Sequence record: NC_014662.1
Source: Enterobacter phage CC31
DNA length: 64,000 bases
Direction: 5' to 3' (one strand)
The notes under the pieces were generated by a model, which searched no databases, was not told the DNA's origin, and was given only the letters and a program-made list of their open reading frames with translations. Each line of letters begins with the position of its first letter. Positions within the stretch are counted from its first letter, which is position 1. This document shows, piece after piece, positions 10,751 through 44,475 of the stretch. Position numbers and translations under genes: made by a program.

Positions 10751-11332
10751 TTATAGAGGGATTACTTTATACTTCTTATTGCCACGAGCATCACGCTTAC
10801 AAACTAATTTGCACTTCATGCCGCTTGTGATAGTGTAATCTTCATCAACCTTCATCCGCATCCAGTCTAATACCATTCCAGATGGGTTCAAAGATTTTTC
10901 AACTTCAACCATAATTTTAGTGCCAGACTTATAAAACTTAGATTCTTGTTGCTCATAGTCAGATAGTGCGCGAGCAAACGCAGATGGGCTTAAGAATTTA
11001 TTATAACCGTGAGCAGCAGCCACAAATGTATTATCTAAAGCATGTTTGATATTTTTGATTACGACTGTTGCGTAACCGATGTGTTTTTCTGGATAGTGAG
11101 TCATTACAAAGTCCTCATGAACTGCGAAAGTTTTTTGATGACGAGATTTTACATCAACATTTGATAAGCGTTTACGATAAACCACTTTCTCTTTTCGTTT
11201 AGATTTAGCTTTTGCCGATTCAACTTTAGCATAATATAAAGCTGCTTCTTCGGGTTTAATACCCGCTTCTCTCGCAATTTCAATAAAACTCAATCCGCAC
11301 TCATGCTTAAAATGAATCTCAATCGGTGTCAT
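10751..11332 (-). CDS. hypothetical protein with N-terminal helix-turn-helix-like segment
   Basis: 193 aa; GLSFIEIAREAGIKPEEA resembles an HTH; lysine-rich linker. Confidence 0.65.
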   Translation of the reverse strand: MTPIEIHFKHECGLSFIEIAREAGIKPEEAALYYAKVESAKAKSKRKEKVVYRKRLSNVDVKSRHQKTFAVHEDFVMTHYPEKHIGYATVVIKNIKHALDNTFVAAAHGYNKFLSPSAFARALSDYEQQESKFYKSGTKIMVEVEKSLNPSGMVLDWMRMKVDEDYTITSGMKCKLVCKRDARGNKKYKVIPL

Positions 11333-11377: not shown

Positions 11378-11404
11378 GAAAAAGCAAAAGGAGCCTTCGG
11401 GCTC
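11378..11404 (-). terminator. intrinsic terminator after hoc (minus strand)
   Basis: GGAGCC-CGAA-GGCTCC on minus strand followed by TTTTGCTTTTT. Confidence 0.7.
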
Positions 11405-11407
11405 CTT

Positions 11408-12106
11408 TTAATAGATGATACCAGCTTCTAAAGCTGAACGATGAACAATACGTCCATTACGTGATTCTTGAACATCAACTTCAGGGTAGTCTTCAATCAT
11501 TTTAGCTAACGTAGCCAAATGACAGTAATAAGGAGTATCAGAAGCGGTTGCAGTTTTCCAGTCTTTACCTTCTTCAGTAAGTTTCTGAATTGCATCCATA
11601 ACCCACCAACCAGCCCAGATATAAGCACTAGAGCGATGCGGAAGTGGATGAACATAGAGAATTGGGCATTCGTCTGGAACAACTGGCTCGGCAGCTTCAA
11701 CTGTAATATTCAGCACATTTGAAGTTTTAACAGTGTCTTCGTATCCAGTTGCTTTAGCAGTTACTTCACATGTTAAAGCAACATTTCCTTCCGTTTGAGC
11801 TACTGCACTAATATCAGCCGTAGTTTCTCCGGTTGACCATTTGTAAGCAAGAGTTGCTCCTGATGGTTGACCTGTTACTCCACAGGTTGCACTATAGCTT
11901 TCACCAACTTTAACAGTTTGAGACTGAGCTGAAATAGTAACAGTAAGATTCATAACGTCATTTACTGTTAAGTTAGTAGTTGCGGTTTGAATATCGTCTG
12001 GGTCTTCACCAGCTTTAGTGGTTGAAGTAACTTTAACTACTTTAGTTCCAGCCGAGTCAGCGGTGTAATCCAAAGTATCAGTCACAGATGATTGTACTAC
12101 AACCAT
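11408..12106 (-). CDS. hoc: outer capsid decoration protein Hoc, main reading frame (232 codons)
   Basis: Ig-like repeats plus C-terminal capsid-binding block PLPHRSSAYIW.GWWVMD...YPEVDVQESRNG matching recalled T4 Hoc; the true N-terminus lies in another frame (next feature). Confidence 0.8.
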   Translation of the reverse strand: MVVVQSSVTDTLDYTADSAGTKVVKVTSTTKAGEDPDDIQTATTNLTVNDVMNLTVTISAQSQTVKVGESYSATCGVTGQPSGATLAYKWSTGETTADISAVAQTEGNVALTCEVTAKATGYEDTVKTSNVLNITVEAAEPVVPDECPILYVHPLPHRSSAYIWAGWWVMDAIQKLTEEGKDWKTATASDTPYYCHLATLAKMIEDYPEVDVQESRNGRIVHRSALEAGIIY

Positions 12107-12219
12107 TCATAAGTTATAGTTGCTCCTTCTGGCGCTCCGTTAACAGTTGCTGTAAACTGTTGTGAATCTCCAACTTTGATAGTGGGATTTAGAGGAGTTA
12201 AATCTACTGTAGTAGCCAT
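12097..12219 (-). pseudogene. hoc: hoc N-terminal fragment, 40 codons in a different frame from the main hoc ORF
   Basis: MATTVDLTPLNPTIKVGDSQQFTATVNGAPEGATITYEWL then TAG; resembles the start of Hoc Ig domain 1; frames differ by one nucleotide. Confidence 0.6.
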
Positions 12220-12252
12220 ATAATTTCCATTATTTAAGAGGGACAAGCCCTC

Positions 12253-13008
12253 TTATGATAAAGTTACAAATGAAGAGTTTCGGGTTTCTCTTACTTGAAC
12301 TGAACCATTACGTTTGATGTAATAAATCAAGCTCAAAAGAGTTTGATGAGCAGTAGGATGCTCAAATGACAGTGGTCTAGATTTCCAATCTGGATTTTCA
12401 AGAATCCACTGATAAATCCACCAAGGAAGAGTAGCATAACCTGGATTACGCCCAATTAAATGCAGAGATGGACTGAAATCAGCCGGAAGCTCGAATGTGT
12501 CAGTTTCAATAACTTTGACAACTTTATCCATAGCTTCATTAAATTCATCTTGGGTCATATTCCCTACTGGAATTTTATGAACTTCGCCGTCATCTGAAAC
12601 TGCAATAACAGAATCACCAATCGGAGCTTCAAGGATTACACCTTTAACTGAGTCCATTGGCTTACCAAAATGAGGGTCGATATCAGTTACTTTCACTTGT
12701 GGTGCGTCAGCAGATACAGAATCAATCAATAGACGAGCTTCTTCTTTAGCTTCATCTTTAAAAATAGCAGTGCCTTTGGCTTCATCATCAGCTTGAATGA
12801 GGTCATAAATTGAAAGACCGTCATTATCTTCTGGCATAGGTTCTTCTGCTAGTTTAGCCAATTCGACTTCAAGGTCAGCGACCATATTGTCGAAGGCTTT
12901 AGTTTTCTTCAGCTTAATACCGAAGGTTTCAGCGTACTCGGCAAGCTTCTCTTTGGCTTCTTTTTTCTCAAGTGCACCGATTTCAGCAATATAATCTTTA
13001 TCTAACAT
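12253..13008 (-). CDS. inh: inhibitor of prohead protease
   Basis: N-terminus MLDKDYIAEIGALEKKEAKEKLAEYAETFGIKLKK matches recalled T4 Inh; start taken at the internal ATG 13008 behind a late promoter. Confidence 0.8.
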   Translation of the reverse strand: MLDKDYIAEIGALEKKEAKEKLAEYAETFGIKLKKTKAFDNMVADLEVELAKLAEEPMPEDNDGLSIYDLIQADDEAKGTAIFKDEAKEEARLLIDSVSADAPQVKVTDIDPHFGKPMDSVKGVILEAPIGDSVIAVSDDGEVHKIPVGNMTQDEFNEAMDKVVKVIETDTFELPADFSPSLHLIGRNPGYATLPWWIYQWILENPDWKSRPLSFEHPTAHQTLLSLIYYIKRNGSVQVRETRNSSFVTLS

Positions 13009-13023
13009 AGTAGCCTCGTTGTG

Positions 13024-13031
13024 TATAAATA
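13024..13031 (+). promoter_or_regulatory. late promoter core TATAAATA upstream of uvsW
   Basis: Exact consensus 30 nt upstream of the uvsW ATG. Confidence 0.6.
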
Positions 13032-13037
13032 TAAATG

Positions 13038-13045
13038 TATTTATA
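13038..13045 (-). promoter_or_regulatory. late promoter core TATAAATA (minus strand) upstream of inh
   Basis: Exact consensus on minus strand, divergent from the uvsW promoter. Confidence 0.55.
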
Positions 13046-13060
13046 ACTAAGGAATCGGCA

Positions 13061-14563
13061 ATGCACGATATCAATGTAAAATTTCATGATTTTAGTCATG
13101 TGTTTATTGAATGTGATGAATCCACATTTCATGAACTAAGAGACTATTTTAGTTTTGAAGCTGATGGCTACAAATTCAATCCAAAATACCGTTATGGGCA
13201 TTGGGATGGACGTATTCGTCTTCTGAACTACGATCGTCTGCTTCCGTTTGGCCTCGTCGGACAAATCCGCAAATTCGCTAATAGTATGGGTTATTCAGTT
13301 TACTTCGAACCGAAGATTTTTGAGACTGAAGAAATTACTCGTGAAGCGTTTGATGATTGGCTGGGCAATCTCAATATTTACTCTGGGAGTAAAAAGATTG
13401 AGCCTCACTGGTATCAGAAAGATGCAGTGTTTGAAGGATTAGTTAATCGCCGTCGAATTTTGAACCTTCCAACGTCTGCTGGTAAATCTTTAATTCAATG
13501 CTTACTTGCTCGTTATTATGTTGAGAATTATGAAGGTAAAATTTTAATCATCGTTCCAACAACAGCATTAGTAGACCAGATGATTAACGACTTCTGTGAT
13601 TATCGTCTATTTGGTAAACAACATTGTCTTGGTATTCGTTCAGGTACAAAGCGTGATTCTGATGCAATGATTTATGTTGCCACCTGGCAAACAGCAGTAA
13701 AACAGCCAAAAGAGTGGTTCCATCAATTCGGCATGATGATGAACGATGAATGCCACCTGGCTACCGGTAAGTCTATTTCTACTATCGTTGCTGGTCTAAA
13801 TAACTGCATGTTTAAGTTCGGCTTATCCGGTTCATTAAAAGACGGAAAAGCTAATATCATGCAATATGTTGGAATGTTTGGTGAAATTTTCAAACCAGTT
13901 TCAACATCACAGCTTATGGAAGATGGACAAGTAACTGACTTAAAAATTAACTCTATTTTCCTTCGGTACCCGGATGAGTTTACCGTCAAAATGAAAGGTA
14001 AAACTTATCAAGAAGAAATTAAAGTTATTACAAATGCAAAACGTCGCAATAAATGGATAGCTAATCTTGCAGTAAAATTGGCTAAGCGAGACGAAAATGC
14101 ATTTCTGATGTTTAAACACGTGGCTCACGGTAAAGAGCTATTTGAAATGATTAAAGAACTTGGGTATGAGAAAGTGTATTATGTTTCAGGGGAAGTTTCT
14201 ACTGAAGTTCGTAATGCTCTGAAGGTGATGGCTGAAAATGGAACAGGAATTATCGTAGTTGCGTCTTATGGCGTTTTTTCTACTGGCATTTCTGTAAAGA
14301 ATCTCCATCATGTTATTTTAGCTCACCCAGTTAAATCAAAAATTATCGTTCTGCAAACAATCGGTCGCGTACTTCGTAAACATGATTCTAAATCAGTTGC
14401 TACAGTATGGGATATCATCGATGATATGGGTGTTAAACCAAAATCAGCAAATGCTAAGAAAAAATATGTTCATTTGAACTATGCTTTAAAGCACGCGCTG
14501 GAGCGCATTCAAAGATATGCAGACGAAAAATTCAATTACGTAATGAAACAAATCGATATTTGA
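13061..14563 (+). CDS. uvsW: UvsW DNA/RNA helicase
   Basis: SF2 helicase motifs (PTSAGKS, DECH, QTIGRVLR) and close match to recalled T4 UvsW; start at MHDINVKF. Confidence 0.9.
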   Translation: MHDINVKFHDFSHVFIECDESTFHELRDYFSFEADGYKFNPKYRYGHWDGRIRLLNYDRLLPFGLVGQIRKFANSMGYSVYFEPKIFETEEITREAFDDWLGNLNIYSGSKKIEPHWYQKDAVFEGLVNRRRILNLPTSAGKSLIQCLLARYYVENYEGKILIIVPTTALVDQMINDFCDYRLFGKQHCLGIRSGTKRDSDAMIYVATWQTAVKQPKEWFHQFGMMMNDECHLATGKSISTIVAGLNNCMFKFGLSGSLKDGKANIMQYVGMFGEIFKPVSTSQLMEDGQVTDLKINSIFLRYPDEFTVKMKGKTYQEEIKVITNAKRRNKWIANLAVKLAKRDENAFLMFKHVAHGKELFEMIKELGYEKVYYVSGEVSTEVRNALKVMAENGTGIIVVASYGVFSTGISVKNLHHVILAHPVKSKIIVLQTIGRVLRKHDSKSVATVWDIIDDMGVKPKSANAKKKYVHLNYALKHALERIQRYADEKFNYVMKQIDI

Positions 14564-35498: not shown

Positions 35499-35833
35499 TC
35501 AAGTTCCTTTACGAAGTTATCAACATCAGCCTTAGCTTTATTATAATCAGCTAGAGTTTTAGCTAACCATTCTTCTTTGCGGCCTTTAAGCAAAGCAGAC
35601 AAATATGAACCCTGAGCAAATAGCTGTGTAGTCATTAAATTTGACATAACATTTGCTAGTTCTGGCGCTTTAGCTTTTACGGCGCGTCGTAAATTTGCTC
35701 CAGCTTCGTCTAAGTCTCTGGCGATGTTTTCAAGTTCTTGTTCTGCGCGAACTGAACCATCATCTACACGAAGTCCATACGAATAAGCATATGAAGCTTT
35801 GCGGTATTTTTCGAGTAGAATTTTAATGGACAT
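35495..35833 (-). CDS. hypothetical protein
   Basis: ORF, start uncertain. Confidence 0.5.
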   Translation of the reverse strand: MSIKILLEKYRKASYAYSYGLRVDDGSVRAEQELENIARDLDEAGANLRRAVKAKAPELANVMSNLMTTQLFAQGSYLSALLKGRKEEWLAKTLADYNKAKADVDNFVKELE

Positions 35834-43429: not shown

Positions 43430-44475
43430 TATGCTTTACTCACAATAACAACGCGTTCAGTAGATTCACCAACAATTTCAATGTGATGAGCCAGAACTAT
43501 ATGAAAATAGCCATTAATCATAATAGAAGAGTTTAATTTGAAGTCAGCATCGCACAGTTGCTCATCAGTTTGAGCATAAACGATACTTCCCAAAGCATTT
43601 GTAAATTTAGTAATCATACAGCCATTTTTTCCTTTGATTGTTGGGTGACTTTCATAGTTAACTAACTTGAAGTCTTCGATAACAGCAAATCGGTTTATCC
43701 ACTTAAGCTGAGATGAAGTTTGCCAGCGCTCAAACTCAATTGGAAAATCAATTTCAAGATTGCAGAGTTCTTTTGGCTCTCGACGAAGAATTTCTTCGCA
43801 CTGCTCAATATGATTTGAATAAATGTGAGTGTTGCCGCCAGTAAATACCAAATGACCAGGTTTTAAGCCAGTCATTTTAGCTACGATATGAATCAAAGCA
43901 GCATACGACGCAATATTGAATGGTAGACCAAGGAATACATCTACCGACCTCTGGTACCACTGGAGGTCCAGAAGCCCATTGCGTACGTTGAACTGATATA
44001 TCATATGGCATGGTGGAAGCGCCATCTTAGGGATGTCTAGAGGGTTCCAGGCGGTCACAATTTGACGGCGGTCATTAGGTAGTTCTTTGATTCGGTTAAT
44101 AACCAAAGTCAATTGGTCAACACCCATAAAGTCTCGCCACTGCTTACCATAAACCGGACCAAGCTCGCCGTCGACATATCCCATTGAACGAGCTTGATTT
44201 TCGTAGTTGTCGTCCCAAACAGTTTTACCATTTGTCGGAGACCCATGCTGACGAAGACGCAAATCGTTTACATTCGTTGAACCGGACAAGAACCACAGAA
44301 GTTCTGCAATACATGCTTTCCAAGCAAGCTTCTTGGTAGTCACTGCTGGAAAACCTTCTTGCAAATCAAATCGTAATTGAGTACCAAACACAGCACAAGT
44401 GCCAGTTCCTGTGCGGTCGTCAGTTACATAGCCTTCATCAAAGATGTGTTGAATTAGTTGTTGATATTGTTTCAT
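43429..44475 (-). CDS. td: thymidylate synthase, intron-free; ORF as sequenced carries a 62-codon C-terminal extension
   Basis: TS motifs (ALPPCHMIYQF, DVFLGLPFNIASYA) complete through HPTIKGK at about residue 283; frame then continues to 43429, see finding. Confidence 0.85.
   Translation of the reverse strand: MKQYQQLIQHIFDEGYVTDDRTGTGTCAVFGTQLRFDLQEGFPAVTTKKLAWKACIAELLWFLSGSTNVNDLRLRQHGSPTNGKTVWDDNYENQARSMGYVDGELGPVYGKQWRDFMGVDQLTLVINRIKELPNDRRQIVTAWNPLDIPKMALPPCHMIYQFNVRNGLLDLQWYQRSVDVFLGLPFNIASYAALIHIVAKMTGLKPGHLVFTGGNTHIYSNHIEQCEEILRREPKELCNLEIDFPIEFERWQTSSQLKWINRFAVIEDFKLVNYESHPTIKGKNGCMITKFTNALGSIVYAQTDEQLCDADFKLNSSIMINGYFHIVLAHHIEIVGESTERVVIVSKA

What the first reader, a model, noticed from the sequence alone, without database searches (positions are those of the whole stretch)
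12097..12225. hoc is split: a 40-codon N-terminal fragment sits in a different frame from the main ORF
The main hoc ORF starts at ATG 12106, but a typical Hoc N-terminus (MATTVDLTPLNPTIKVGDSQQFTATVNGAPEGATITYEWL) is encoded from ATG 12219 in another frame and hits TAG at 12097-12099. The frames differ by one nucleotide around GAATGGTTGTAG. Either hoc carries a 1-nt indel (pseudogene, or truncated Hoc restarted at the internal ATG) or the assembly has an error. Hoc is non-essential, so inactivation is plausible and would change the capsid surface.
Basis: partly seen in the sequence, partly recalled or inferred. Interest (0 to 1): 0.55.

Follow-up and report, generated by a model that had tools for sequence, protein, structure and literature searches.

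The report
Ten-base deletion splits phage hoc
The capsid-decoration gene hoc of Enterobacter phage CC31 is broken by a 10-base deletion that no sequenced relative shares, an ordinary strain-specific knockout of a dispensable gene that GenBank already annotates as two pieces.

Summary
On the minus strand, ATG 12219 opens a 40-codon ORF ending at TAG 12099-12097. A 232-codon ORF (ATG 12106 to TAA 11410-11408) follows in the -1 frame.

The window is Enterobacter phage CC31. GenBank/RefSeq already list both pieces as Hoc CDSs (ADB81680.1, ADB81679.1).

Three relatives 96.6-98.4% identical in hoc all read TGGT-CAGTTGATGA-TGTAG, and CC31 lacks those 10 nt (codons 40-43). The flanks are identical and show no microhomology.

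Of 25 Karamvirus/Kanagawavirus hoc loci, 23 are intact. Only CC31 (-10 bp) and PG7 (+1 C, at another site in another allele) are broken.

A model of the repaired protein puts the break at the end of the fourth beta-strand of Ig domain 1. Ig domain 2 and the capsid-binding C-domain are untouched.

There is no slippery site, and no relative shares the split, so programmed recoding is excluded.

Most likely this is a recent loss-of-function or hypomorphic lesion. A low-level 232-aa product could arise by restart at the ATG overlapping the stop (ATGGTTGTAG), but there is no well-spaced Shine-Dalgarno.

A sequencing artefact cannot be excluded: the record also has two CC31-atypical extra-A homopolymer differences.

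Low interest.

The parts
13038..13045 (-). T4-type late-promoter motif TATAAATA, about 30 nt upstream of the inh start codon. It is the likely promoter of an inh-hoc late transcript. No such motif lies directly upstream of hoc.
   Evidence: 13 exact matches in the window against 3.7 expected. Function is inferred from established knowledge of T4 late promoters.
12253..13008 (-). inh (inhibitor of prohead protease gp21), 251 codons, the gene immediately upstream of hoc.
   Evidence: ORF. Synteny and annotation in relatives.
12097..12219 (-). hoc 5' fragment: 40 codons plus TAG. It encodes the first four of the eight predicted strands of Ig domain 1. It is annotated in GenBank as ADB81680.1 'head outer capsid protein'.
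12101..12102 (-). Deletion junction. Ten nt (CAGTTGATGA, parts of codons 40-43, Ser-Val-Asp-Asp) that are present in all close relatives are missing between these two bases.
12097..12106 (-). 10-nt overlap ATGGTTGTAG. The start codon of the downstream ORF lies 7 nt upstream of the stop codon of the upstream ORF. This is the only stretch where both frames are open, and the only place where a restart or a frameshift could occur.
11408..12106 (-). hoc 3' fragment: 232 codons plus TAA. It encodes the second half of Ig domain 1, all of Ig domain 2 (about 11696-11944) and the capsid-binding C-terminal domain (about 11411-11677). It is annotated as ADB81679.1 / YP_004010041.1.
11385..11410 (-). Intrinsic terminator hairpin (11-bp stem, GGAGCC/GGCTCC core, followed by a T-run). 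Its 5' arm begins at the hoc stop codon.
   Evidence: The sequence is conserved in UMC02.

Best explanation
The window comes from Enterobacter phage CC31 (genus Karamvirus). Its hoc gene normally encodes a 273-aa capsid decoration protein made of two Ig-like domains and a C-terminal capsid-binding domain.

In CC31 the gene has lost 10 bp (CAGTTGATGA) inside codons 40-43, at the end of the fourth beta-strand of the distal Ig domain. The resulting -1 frame change terminates translation after 40 codons, so full-length Hoc cannot be made from this sequence.

The lesion is specific to this isolate and looks recent. It fits loss of a gene that is dispensable under laboratory propagation.

The expected phenotype is a capsid with no Hoc, or at most sparse occupancy by a 232-aa product. 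Such a product could arise when ribosomes terminating at TAG 12099-12097 reinitiate at the ATG 7 nt upstream (12106). It would keep Ig domain 2 and the capsid-binding domain behind an unfolded half-domain tail.

Shown: the deletion, its uniqueness, its position in the fold, and the absence of recoding signals. Inferred: that it is a real mutation rather than an assembly error, and every statement about protein output.
For: Identity of the window:
- The exact 40-aa and 232-aa sequences are ADB81680.1 and ADB81679.1 of phage CC31, each seen on a single 165,540-bp contig.

The deletion:
- Pairwise alignment to vB_VIPECLUMC02 shows a single 10-column gap.
- Three relatives (96.6, 97.3 and 98.4% nt identity) all carry TGGT-CAGTTGATGA-TGTAG, and the 36-nt flank shown on each side is identical to the window.
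- Seven further relatives with 185- or 273-aa Hoc read through TYEW-[SMK][VI]D[DN]-VVQSSVT.

Uniqueness:
- 23 of 25 hoc loci are intact. Only CC31 and PG7 are broken, at different sites in different alleles.

Sequence quality:
- Across about 50 kb colinear with UMC02, the hoc deletion is the only uncompensated frame break in the interior of a conserved CDS.

Recency:
- The 232-codon ORF has no stop codons.
- CC31-branch changes are 5 synonymous and 3 conservative non-synonymous, against 20 and 2 on the other branches (Fisher p=0.10).

Fold mapping:
- The AlphaFold2 model of the repaired protein has pLDDT 86.8. The strand at residues 34-41 is TITYEWSV. Ig domain 2 spans 96-178 and the C-domain 196-268.
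- Pfam Big_2 aligns the 40-aa fragment to profile positions 2-38 of 79.

Dispensability and binding:
- hoc null mutants are viable. N-terminal fusions do not affect capsid binding, while C-terminal fusions do (PMC3012670).
- The C-terminal domain is the capsid-binding domain (PMC10385173).
Against: - No independent sequence of CC31 exists in the collections searched.
- The record carries two other frame-altering differences of the homopolymer type (A6 vs A5 at 11131-11136 and at 43625-43630). Some sequence error in this 2010 record is therefore plausible.
- The slight excess of non-synonymous changes on the CC31 branch is not significant, so it does not help to date the lesion.
- Restart at ATG 12106 lacks a properly spaced Shine-Dalgarno. 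AAGGAG lies 16 nt upstream. The ATG also sits at the loop-stem junction of a predicted 9-bp hairpin whose 3' arm spans the deletion junction.
Confidence: 0.7

Rival explanations
1. Sequencing or assembly artefact. The real CC31 genome has an intact 273-codon hoc, and the 10 nt were lost in the deposited consensus.
For: - The junction is seen only in this one record.
- The same record has two extra-A homopolymer differences that fuse neighbouring genes: 24.3/24.2 at 11131-11136, and td with the downstream ORF at 43625-43630. This is a pattern typical of base-calling error.
- All 23 other loci are intact apart from PG7, whose break is a 1-nt insertion also compatible with error.
Against: - A clean 10-nt deletion in non-repetitive sequence is not a typical error of any common platform. 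It is not in a homopolymer or a tandem repeat.
- The depositors annotated two separate Hoc CDSs, so they saw the break and kept it.
- Over about 50 kb there is no other uncompensated frame break in the interior of a conserved CDS.
- The td A6 run is shared with an independently sequenced phage, PG7, so it may be a real allele rather than an error.
Confidence: 0.2
2. A functional truncated Hoc. The 232-codon ORF is translated at useful levels by termination-reinitiation at the overlapping ATG. The product decorates the capsid and behaves like the natural one-Ig 185-aa Hoc of related Karamviruses, plus a floppy tail of about 50 aa.
For: - The ATG lies 7 nt upstream of the stop of the upstream ORF, in a 10-nt overlap.
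- The ORF retains intact Ig domain 2 and the capsid-binding domain.
- Natural Hoc proteins with a single Ig domain exist in nine relatives.
- N-terminal alterations of T4 Hoc do not impair capsid binding (PMC3012670).
- The ORF is free of stop codons.
- From my own knowledge, not checked here: translational reinitiation after nonsense codons is classic in T4 rIIB.
Against: - There is no Shine-Dalgarno within 5-13 nt of the ATG; AAGGAG is 16 nt away.
- The ATG is in frame only by accident of the deletion, and no relative has this arrangement.
- A predicted local hairpin covers the site.
- The half Ig domain left at the N-terminus cannot fold by itself and may trigger degradation (inference).
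- The divergence is too small to show purifying selection after the deletion.
Confidence: 0.15
3. Programmed recoding (a -1 ribosomal frameshift, or a gene-60-like translational hop) restores a near-full-length Hoc from the split gene.
For: - The take-off codon TTG is followed directly by the TAG stop.
- A matching TTG lies in the downstream frame, with its first base 30 nt further on at 12073.
- A predicted hairpin spans the stop.
Against: - There is no X_XXY_YYZ heptamer. The two frames are co-open for only 10 nt, over the non-slippery codons TGG and TTG.
- The hairpin is not better than shuffled sequence (z=-1.29).
- The arrangement exists in one genome only and was created by a recent deletion. 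The other 23 loci encode an uninterrupted gene.
- A single codon match within about 11 codons is expected by chance.
Confidence: 0.01

Closest known systems
T4 Hoc (highly immunogenic outer capsid protein; PDB 5vf3 chain Z, 8t1x; PHROG 1149)
   Same: - The repaired protein matches T4 Hoc at E=7.5e-72.
[quoted passage not shown] - It has the same gene neighbourhood, inh-hoc-24.3-24.2-rnlB.
   Different: - It has two Ig domains rather than three (273 aa vs 376 aa).
- In CC31 the gene is interrupted by a 10-nt deletion, so full-length protein cannot be made.
Intact Hoc of Enterobacter phage vB_VIPECLUMC02 (WFG78914.1) and of two environmental contigs (Logan ERR11525548, ENA ERZ15610019)
   Same: 96.6-98.4% nucleotide identity over hoc. 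The N-terminal 39 residues and the C-domain are identical.
   Different: They carry the 10 nt CAGTTGATGA and encode one continuous 273-aa protein.
'Putative split head outer capsid protein' of Enterobacter phage PG7 (AHI61102.1 + AHI61101.1)
   Same: It is the other Karamvirus whose hoc is annotated as two CDSs. It is also an early-sequenced isolate.
   Different: - It is a different hoc allele (three Ig domains, 373 codons).
- The break is at a different position (Ig domain 2, about nt 433).
- The lesion is of a different kind: a single extra C relative to three relatives 99.2-99.6% identical.
- Fokine et al. 2023 (PMC10385173, section 3.6) treated its 233-aa piece as a natural short Hoc.
Laboratory hoc null (amber or deletion) mutants of T4
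   Same: Both involve loss of a dispensable decoration protein with no effect on phage production, viability or infectivity (PMC3012670).
   Different: Those mutants were engineered or selected. The CC31 lesion is spontaneous, and its phenotype has not been examined.

Membership tests
Hoc (T4-type head outer capsid decoration protein) | C-terminal capsid-binding domain homologous to T4 Hoc residues 281-376 | tested here: met
   One search aligns residues ~190-273 of the repaired protein to T4 Hoc ~291-373, with long identical runs (YVHPLPHRSSAYIW, YPEVDVQESRNG). PHROG 1149 matches at E=7.3e-86 for the 232-aa piece. The AF2 model shows a strand-plus-helix C-domain.
Hoc (T4-type head outer capsid decoration protein) | N-terminal string of Ig-like domains | tested here: met
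   Pfam Big_2 matches at E=1e-5, above the gathering score, for the repaired protein, with weaker Ig_3 and I-set matches. The model shows two beta-sandwich domains, at residues 4-91 and 96-178.
Hoc (T4-type head outer capsid decoration protein) | Conserved genomic position between inh and the 24.x/rnlB genes, on a late transcript | tested here: met
   The gene order is the same in every relative where it was inspected. There is a TATAAATA motif upstream of inh and a terminator after hoc.
Hoc (T4-type head outer capsid decoration protein) | A single uninterrupted ORF encoding the whole protein | tested here: not met
   The gene is split into 40 + 232 codons by a 10-nt deletion. It is a disrupted member of the family, i.e. 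a pseudogene or hypomorph as sequenced.
Hoc (T4-type head outer capsid decoration protein) | Protein present at the centres of capsid hexamers | not testable with these tools
   Needs virion proteomics or cryo-EM of CC31.
Programmed -1 ribosomal frameshift | Slippery heptamer X_XXY_YYZ in the overlap, and conservation of the two-frame arrangement in relatives | tested here: not met
   No heptamer is present, and the overlap is only ATGGTTGTAG. 23 of 25 loci have a single-frame gene.
Translational bypass (T4 gene 60 type) | Matched take-off and landing codons, a stop after take-off within a stable hairpin, and conservation | tested here: not met
   A TTG/TTG pair exists, with first bases 30 nt apart. 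However, the hairpin is not significant (z=-1.29) and the arrangement is unique to one genome.
Termination-reinitiation (translational coupling) | Start codon overlapping or within a few nt of the upstream stop | tested here: met
   ATG 12106 lies 7 nt upstream of TAG 12099.
Termination-reinitiation (translational coupling) | Shine-Dalgarno about 5-10 nt upstream of the restart codon, and demonstrated downstream product | tested here: not met
   The only SD-like motif, AAGGAG, ends 16 nt upstream of the ATG. Whether product is made cannot be tested here.

The most novel reading that the evidence does not exclude
The 232-codon ORF is translated by termination-reinitiation at the overlapping ATG. 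CC31 capsids would then carry, at reduced occupancy, an N-terminally truncated Hoc with one intact Ig domain and a disordered half-domain tail. This would be a spontaneous step along the one-, two- and three-Ig length series seen among Karamvirus Hoc proteins. Vacant hexamer centres might also become available to the second protein with a Hoc-type capsid-binding domain (the GDSL-lipase fusion described for PG7), if CC31 encodes one outside this window.
Probability: 0.12. Interest if true: 0.3.

Novelty: already known. Interest (0 to 1): 0.13.

Why it matters
The practical value is mainly for annotation and for reference strains.

- CC31 is the exemplar of its Karamvirus species. As sequenced, it cannot make full-length Hoc. 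Any work using CC31 for capsid structure, mucus or cell adherence, immunogenicity or Hoc-display should first check its Hoc status.
- PG7, exemplar of the species Karamvirus pg7, is also broken, by a single extra C. A published structural survey has taken its 233-residue fragment for a natural short Hoc. Hoc length catalogues built from database proteins therefore contain frameshift fragments.
- Biologically, the finding is one more example of a dispensable decoration gene being lost or damaged in a propagated isolate. That is expected and opens no new question.

Tried and rejected
- **Independent confirmation of the deletion.** The exact junction occurs in IMG/VR only in the CC31 contig itself, which is identical to window 11904-13836. 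It is absent from JGI metagenomes. The control search for the intact allele was also negative in metagenomes and in IMG/VR, so these negatives say nothing.
- **Fetching the CC31 GenBank record.** It is not in the phage collection. Identity was established instead by exact protein look-up.
- **Literature on CC31 Hoc.** Petrov et al. 2010 never mention Hoc. The other hits were "post hoc" noise or irrelevant.
- **Microhomology or direct repeats at the deletion ends.** None was found. An alternative reading as two deletions (4 + 6 nt) is possible but less parsimonious. No deletion mechanism is proposed.
- **Relaxed selection as evidence of an old pseudogene.** Not significant (p=0.10).
- **Recoding signals.** There is no slippery heptamer. 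The matching TTG landing codon is judged to be chance. The junction hairpin is not better than shuffles.
- **NCBIfam.** It has no Hoc model, so the scan gave no hits.
- **A second Hoc-like gene.** None lies in the window or in the 50 kb of the closest relative that I fetched, which covers roughly the first 50 kb of the window. Whether CC31 has one elsewhere was not pursued.
- **Structure prediction.** No fold search was run, because sequence homology to T4 Hoc is already decisive.

Full report
**What is in the sequence**

- ATG 12219 opens a 40-codon ORF, MATTVDLTPLNPTIKVGDSQQFTATVNGAPEGATITYEWL, closed by TAG 12099-12097.
- ATG 12106 opens a 232-codon ORF closed by TAA 11410-11408, in the -1 frame relative to the first.
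- The two ORFs overlap by ten bases, ATGGTTGTAG. This is the only stretch where both frames are open.

**Where the window comes from**

An exact-sequence look-up identifies the 40-aa and 232-aa products as ADB81680.1/YP_004010042.1 and ADB81679.1/YP_004010041.1 of Enterobacter phage CC31. One is named "head outer capsid protein" and the other "Hoc-like head decoration". Each is seen on a single 165,540-bp contig. Size and accession agree with Petrov et al. 2010 (PMC2993671), a paper that never mentions Hoc.

The split has therefore sat in the public annotation since 2010, but it has not been discussed in the papers I could search. The only other database hit to the junction (IMG/VR) is identical to window 11904-13836. 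It is the same genome and gives no independent confirmation.

**What the lesion is**

That is not what relatives show.

- The closest phage in the collection, vB_VIPECLUMC02 (Karamvirus), has one continuous 822-nt hoc. The pairwise alignment shows a single 10-column gap in the window.
- The 90%-identity protein cluster holds four other members, all intact at 273 aa and all reading EW-SVDD-VVQ.
- At the DNA level, three relatives at 96.6, 97.3 and 98.4% identity all carry TGGT-CAGTTGATGA-TGTAG. The 36-nt flank shown on each side is identical to the window.
- Seven more distant relatives with 185- or 273-aa Hoc also read straight through this point.

The ancestral state is therefore an intact gene. 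CC31 has lost 10 nt between window positions 12102 and 12101, a net -1 frame change. No microhomology or direct repeat flanks the deletion, so I cannot name a mechanism for it.

**Where it falls in the protein**

- The repaired protein matches T4 Hoc at E=7.5e-72. Its C-terminal ~85 residues align to the T4 capsid-binding domain.
- PHROG 1149 (Hoc-like head decoration) matches the 40-aa piece at 3.7e-10 and the 232-aa piece at 7.3e-86.
- Pfam Big_2 aligns the 40-aa piece to profile positions 2-38 of 79, the first half of a domain.
- An AlphaFold2 model of the repaired protein (mean pLDDT 86.8) gives Ig domain 1 as eight strands (residues 4-8, 13-15, 19-27, 34-41, 44-47, 52-56, 61-72, 79-91). 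Ig domain 2 spans about 96-178, and the strand-plus-helix C-domain about 196-268.

The deleted codons 40-43 are the end of the fourth strand (TITYEWSV) and the following turn. The 40-aa peptide carries four strands of Ig domain 1. The 232-aa ORF carries the other four, plus intact Ig domain 2 and the intact capsid-binding domain.

**How unusual it is among relatives**

I examined 25 hoc loci: 23 Karamvirus (including two environmental contigs) and 2 Kanagawavirus.

- Hoc comes in modular length classes: 185 aa (9 genomes), 273 aa (6, plus CC31), 373 aa (7, plus PG7) and 487 aa (1).
- 23 loci are intact.
- The only other broken one is PG7, annotated "putative split head outer capsid protein". 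Its break is a single extra C in Ig domain 2 of the three-Ig allele, relative to three relatives 99.2-99.6% identical.

The two lesions are independent and different in kind.

**Real mutation or artefact?**

This cannot be settled without reads, but several points bear on it.

For a real mutation:
- A clean 10-nt loss in non-repetitive sequence is not a typical platform error.
- The depositors annotated two Hoc CDSs, so they evidently accepted the break.
- Across about 50 kb colinear with UMC02 at ~94% identity, it is the only uncompensated frame break in the interior of a conserved gene. Most of the other non-triplet indels are intergenic, lie at gene ends, or form compensating clusters. One more lies inside a small non-core ORF (window ~35635-35672, net -3 as aligned; not followed up).

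For caution:
- The record has two frame-altering differences of the extra-A type.
- A6 instead of A5 at 11131-11136 fuses the 75-aa DUF2774 gene (24.3) to the 117-aa gene downstream, giving a 193-aa ORF.
- A6 instead of A5 at 43625-43630 fuses td to the next small gene.
- PG7 shares the td A6, but VPA32 and UMC02 do not. Nine or so other genomes appear not to, judging from 350-nt rather than 351-nt spans.

I put a real mutation at about 0.7-0.8 and an artefact at about 0.2.

**Age of the lesion**

The 232-codon ORF has no stop codons. Changes on the CC31 branch are 5 synonymous and 3 conservative non-synonymous (I150V, A161T, A166T), against 20 and 2 on the other branches. This is not significant (Fisher p=0.10). 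The lesion looks recent, or else there are too few changes to tell.

**Consequences, and how it most likely works**

The inh-hoc pair lies behind a T4-type late-promoter motif (TATAAATA, 13045-13038) and ahead of a strong terminator (11410-11385). The mRNA should therefore be made normally. Translation from ATG 12219 ends after 40 codons.

Established T4 knowledge bears on what follows:
- Hoc null mutants are fully viable.
- N-terminal fusions leave capsid binding unchanged, whereas C-terminal fusions weaken it (PMC3012670).
- The C-domain is the capsid-binding module (PMC10385173).

A Hoc-less virion is thus the default expectation, at no cost in the laboratory.

A 232-aa product could arise if terminating ribosomes reinitiate at the ATG 7 nt upstream of the stop, and if made it should still bind the capsid. 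Against this:
- The only Shine-Dalgarno-like motif (AAGGAG) ends 16 nt from that ATG.
- The ATG is in frame only by accident of the deletion.
- The ATG sits at the loop-stem junction of a predicted 9-bp hairpin whose 3' arm spans the deletion junction. The region as a whole folds no better than shuffles (z=-1.29).

Any such product is probably scarce.

Programmed frameshifting or hopping is excluded for practical purposes. There is no slippery heptamer. A single matching TTG landing codon is what chance would give. No relative shares the arrangement.

**Comparison with what is known, and verdict**

This is a disrupted member of the Hoc family. Every family feature that can be tested is met except the uninterrupted ORF. 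The phenomenon, spontaneous damage to a dispensable decoration gene in a propagated isolate, is ordinary, and the split itself is already in GenBank.

What this analysis adds:
- the exact nature of the lesion (10-nt deletion, not a 1-nt indel);
- its uniqueness among 25 loci;
- its position in the fold;
- the caution that two Karamvirus species exemplars, CC31 and PG7, both carry broken hoc genes. The PG7 fragment has been read in the literature as a natural short Hoc (PMC10385173, section 3.6).

Interest is low.

Noticed in passing
window 10751-11332 (-); A-run at 11131-11136: The 193-aa ORF CC31p182 ('protein 24.3', ADB81678.1) is a fusion of two genes that are separate in all 7 relatives checked: a 75- or 80-aa DUF2774 gene and a 117-aa gene. 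The cause is one extra A (A6 vs A5) relative to the two nearest relatives. This could be a homopolymer slippage mutation or a base-calling error.
   Followed up: partly
window 43625-43630 (-), 3' end of td: GGAAAAAATGG (A6) replaces A5 as seen in UMC02 and VPA32. This shifts the last residues of thymidylate synthase and fuses it to the downstream small gene, giving a 348-aa ORF instead of 286 aa. PG7 shares the A6. About nine other, more recently deposited Karamvirus genomes appear to have A5, judging from 350-nt rather than 351-nt spans. It is either a real allele shared by the two older isolates or a recurrent homopolymer error.
   Followed up: partly
L002 (PG7, KJ101592) 1091-2213: PG7's 'putative split' hoc is a 373-codon three-Ig hoc broken by a single extra C (CAAAC to CAAACC, about nt 433) relative to KaAlpha, fGh-Ecl01 and OM01 (99.2-99.6% identical). 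Fokine et al. 2023 (PMC10385173, section 3.6) describe its 233-residue piece as a natural shorter Hoc with one Ig domain. PG7 also has a frameshift near the 5' end of its 24.3 homologue.
   Followed up: yes
hoc loci L001-L026: Within one genus, Hoc varies in whole Ig-domain modules: 185 aa (one Ig), 273 aa (two), 373 aa (three), and 487 aa in a Kanagawavirus. The C-terminal domain stays 80-100% identical. Only this 3' portion of hoc is conserved at the DNA level between classes, which suggests domain gain and loss or allele replacement by recombination.
   Followed up: partly
Karamvirus records outside the window (second tblastn 'place'): Many Karamvirus genomes have a second match to the Hoc capsid-binding domain. 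According to PMC10385173, in PG7 this is a 511-aa protein with the capsid-binding domain at its N-terminus fused to a GDSL lipase/acylhydrolase. No such copy lies in this 64-kb window or in the 50 kb of UMC02 I fetched. Whether CC31 has one elsewhere was not checked.
   Followed up: no
window 13024-13031 (+) and 13038-13045 (-): Two TATAAATA late-promoter motifs sit back to back in the inh/uvsW intergenic region and point in opposite directions. The window holds 13 exact copies of the motif against 3.7 expected by chance.
   Followed up: no
window about 25363: There is one extra base relative to UMC02 in the run TCTAAAGCCC vs TCTAAGCCC, just before a GC-rich terminator-like hairpin (GCCCTTCGGGGC) at the end of a small minus-strand gene. 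It is at or beyond the stop codon and probably without consequence.
   Followed up: partly
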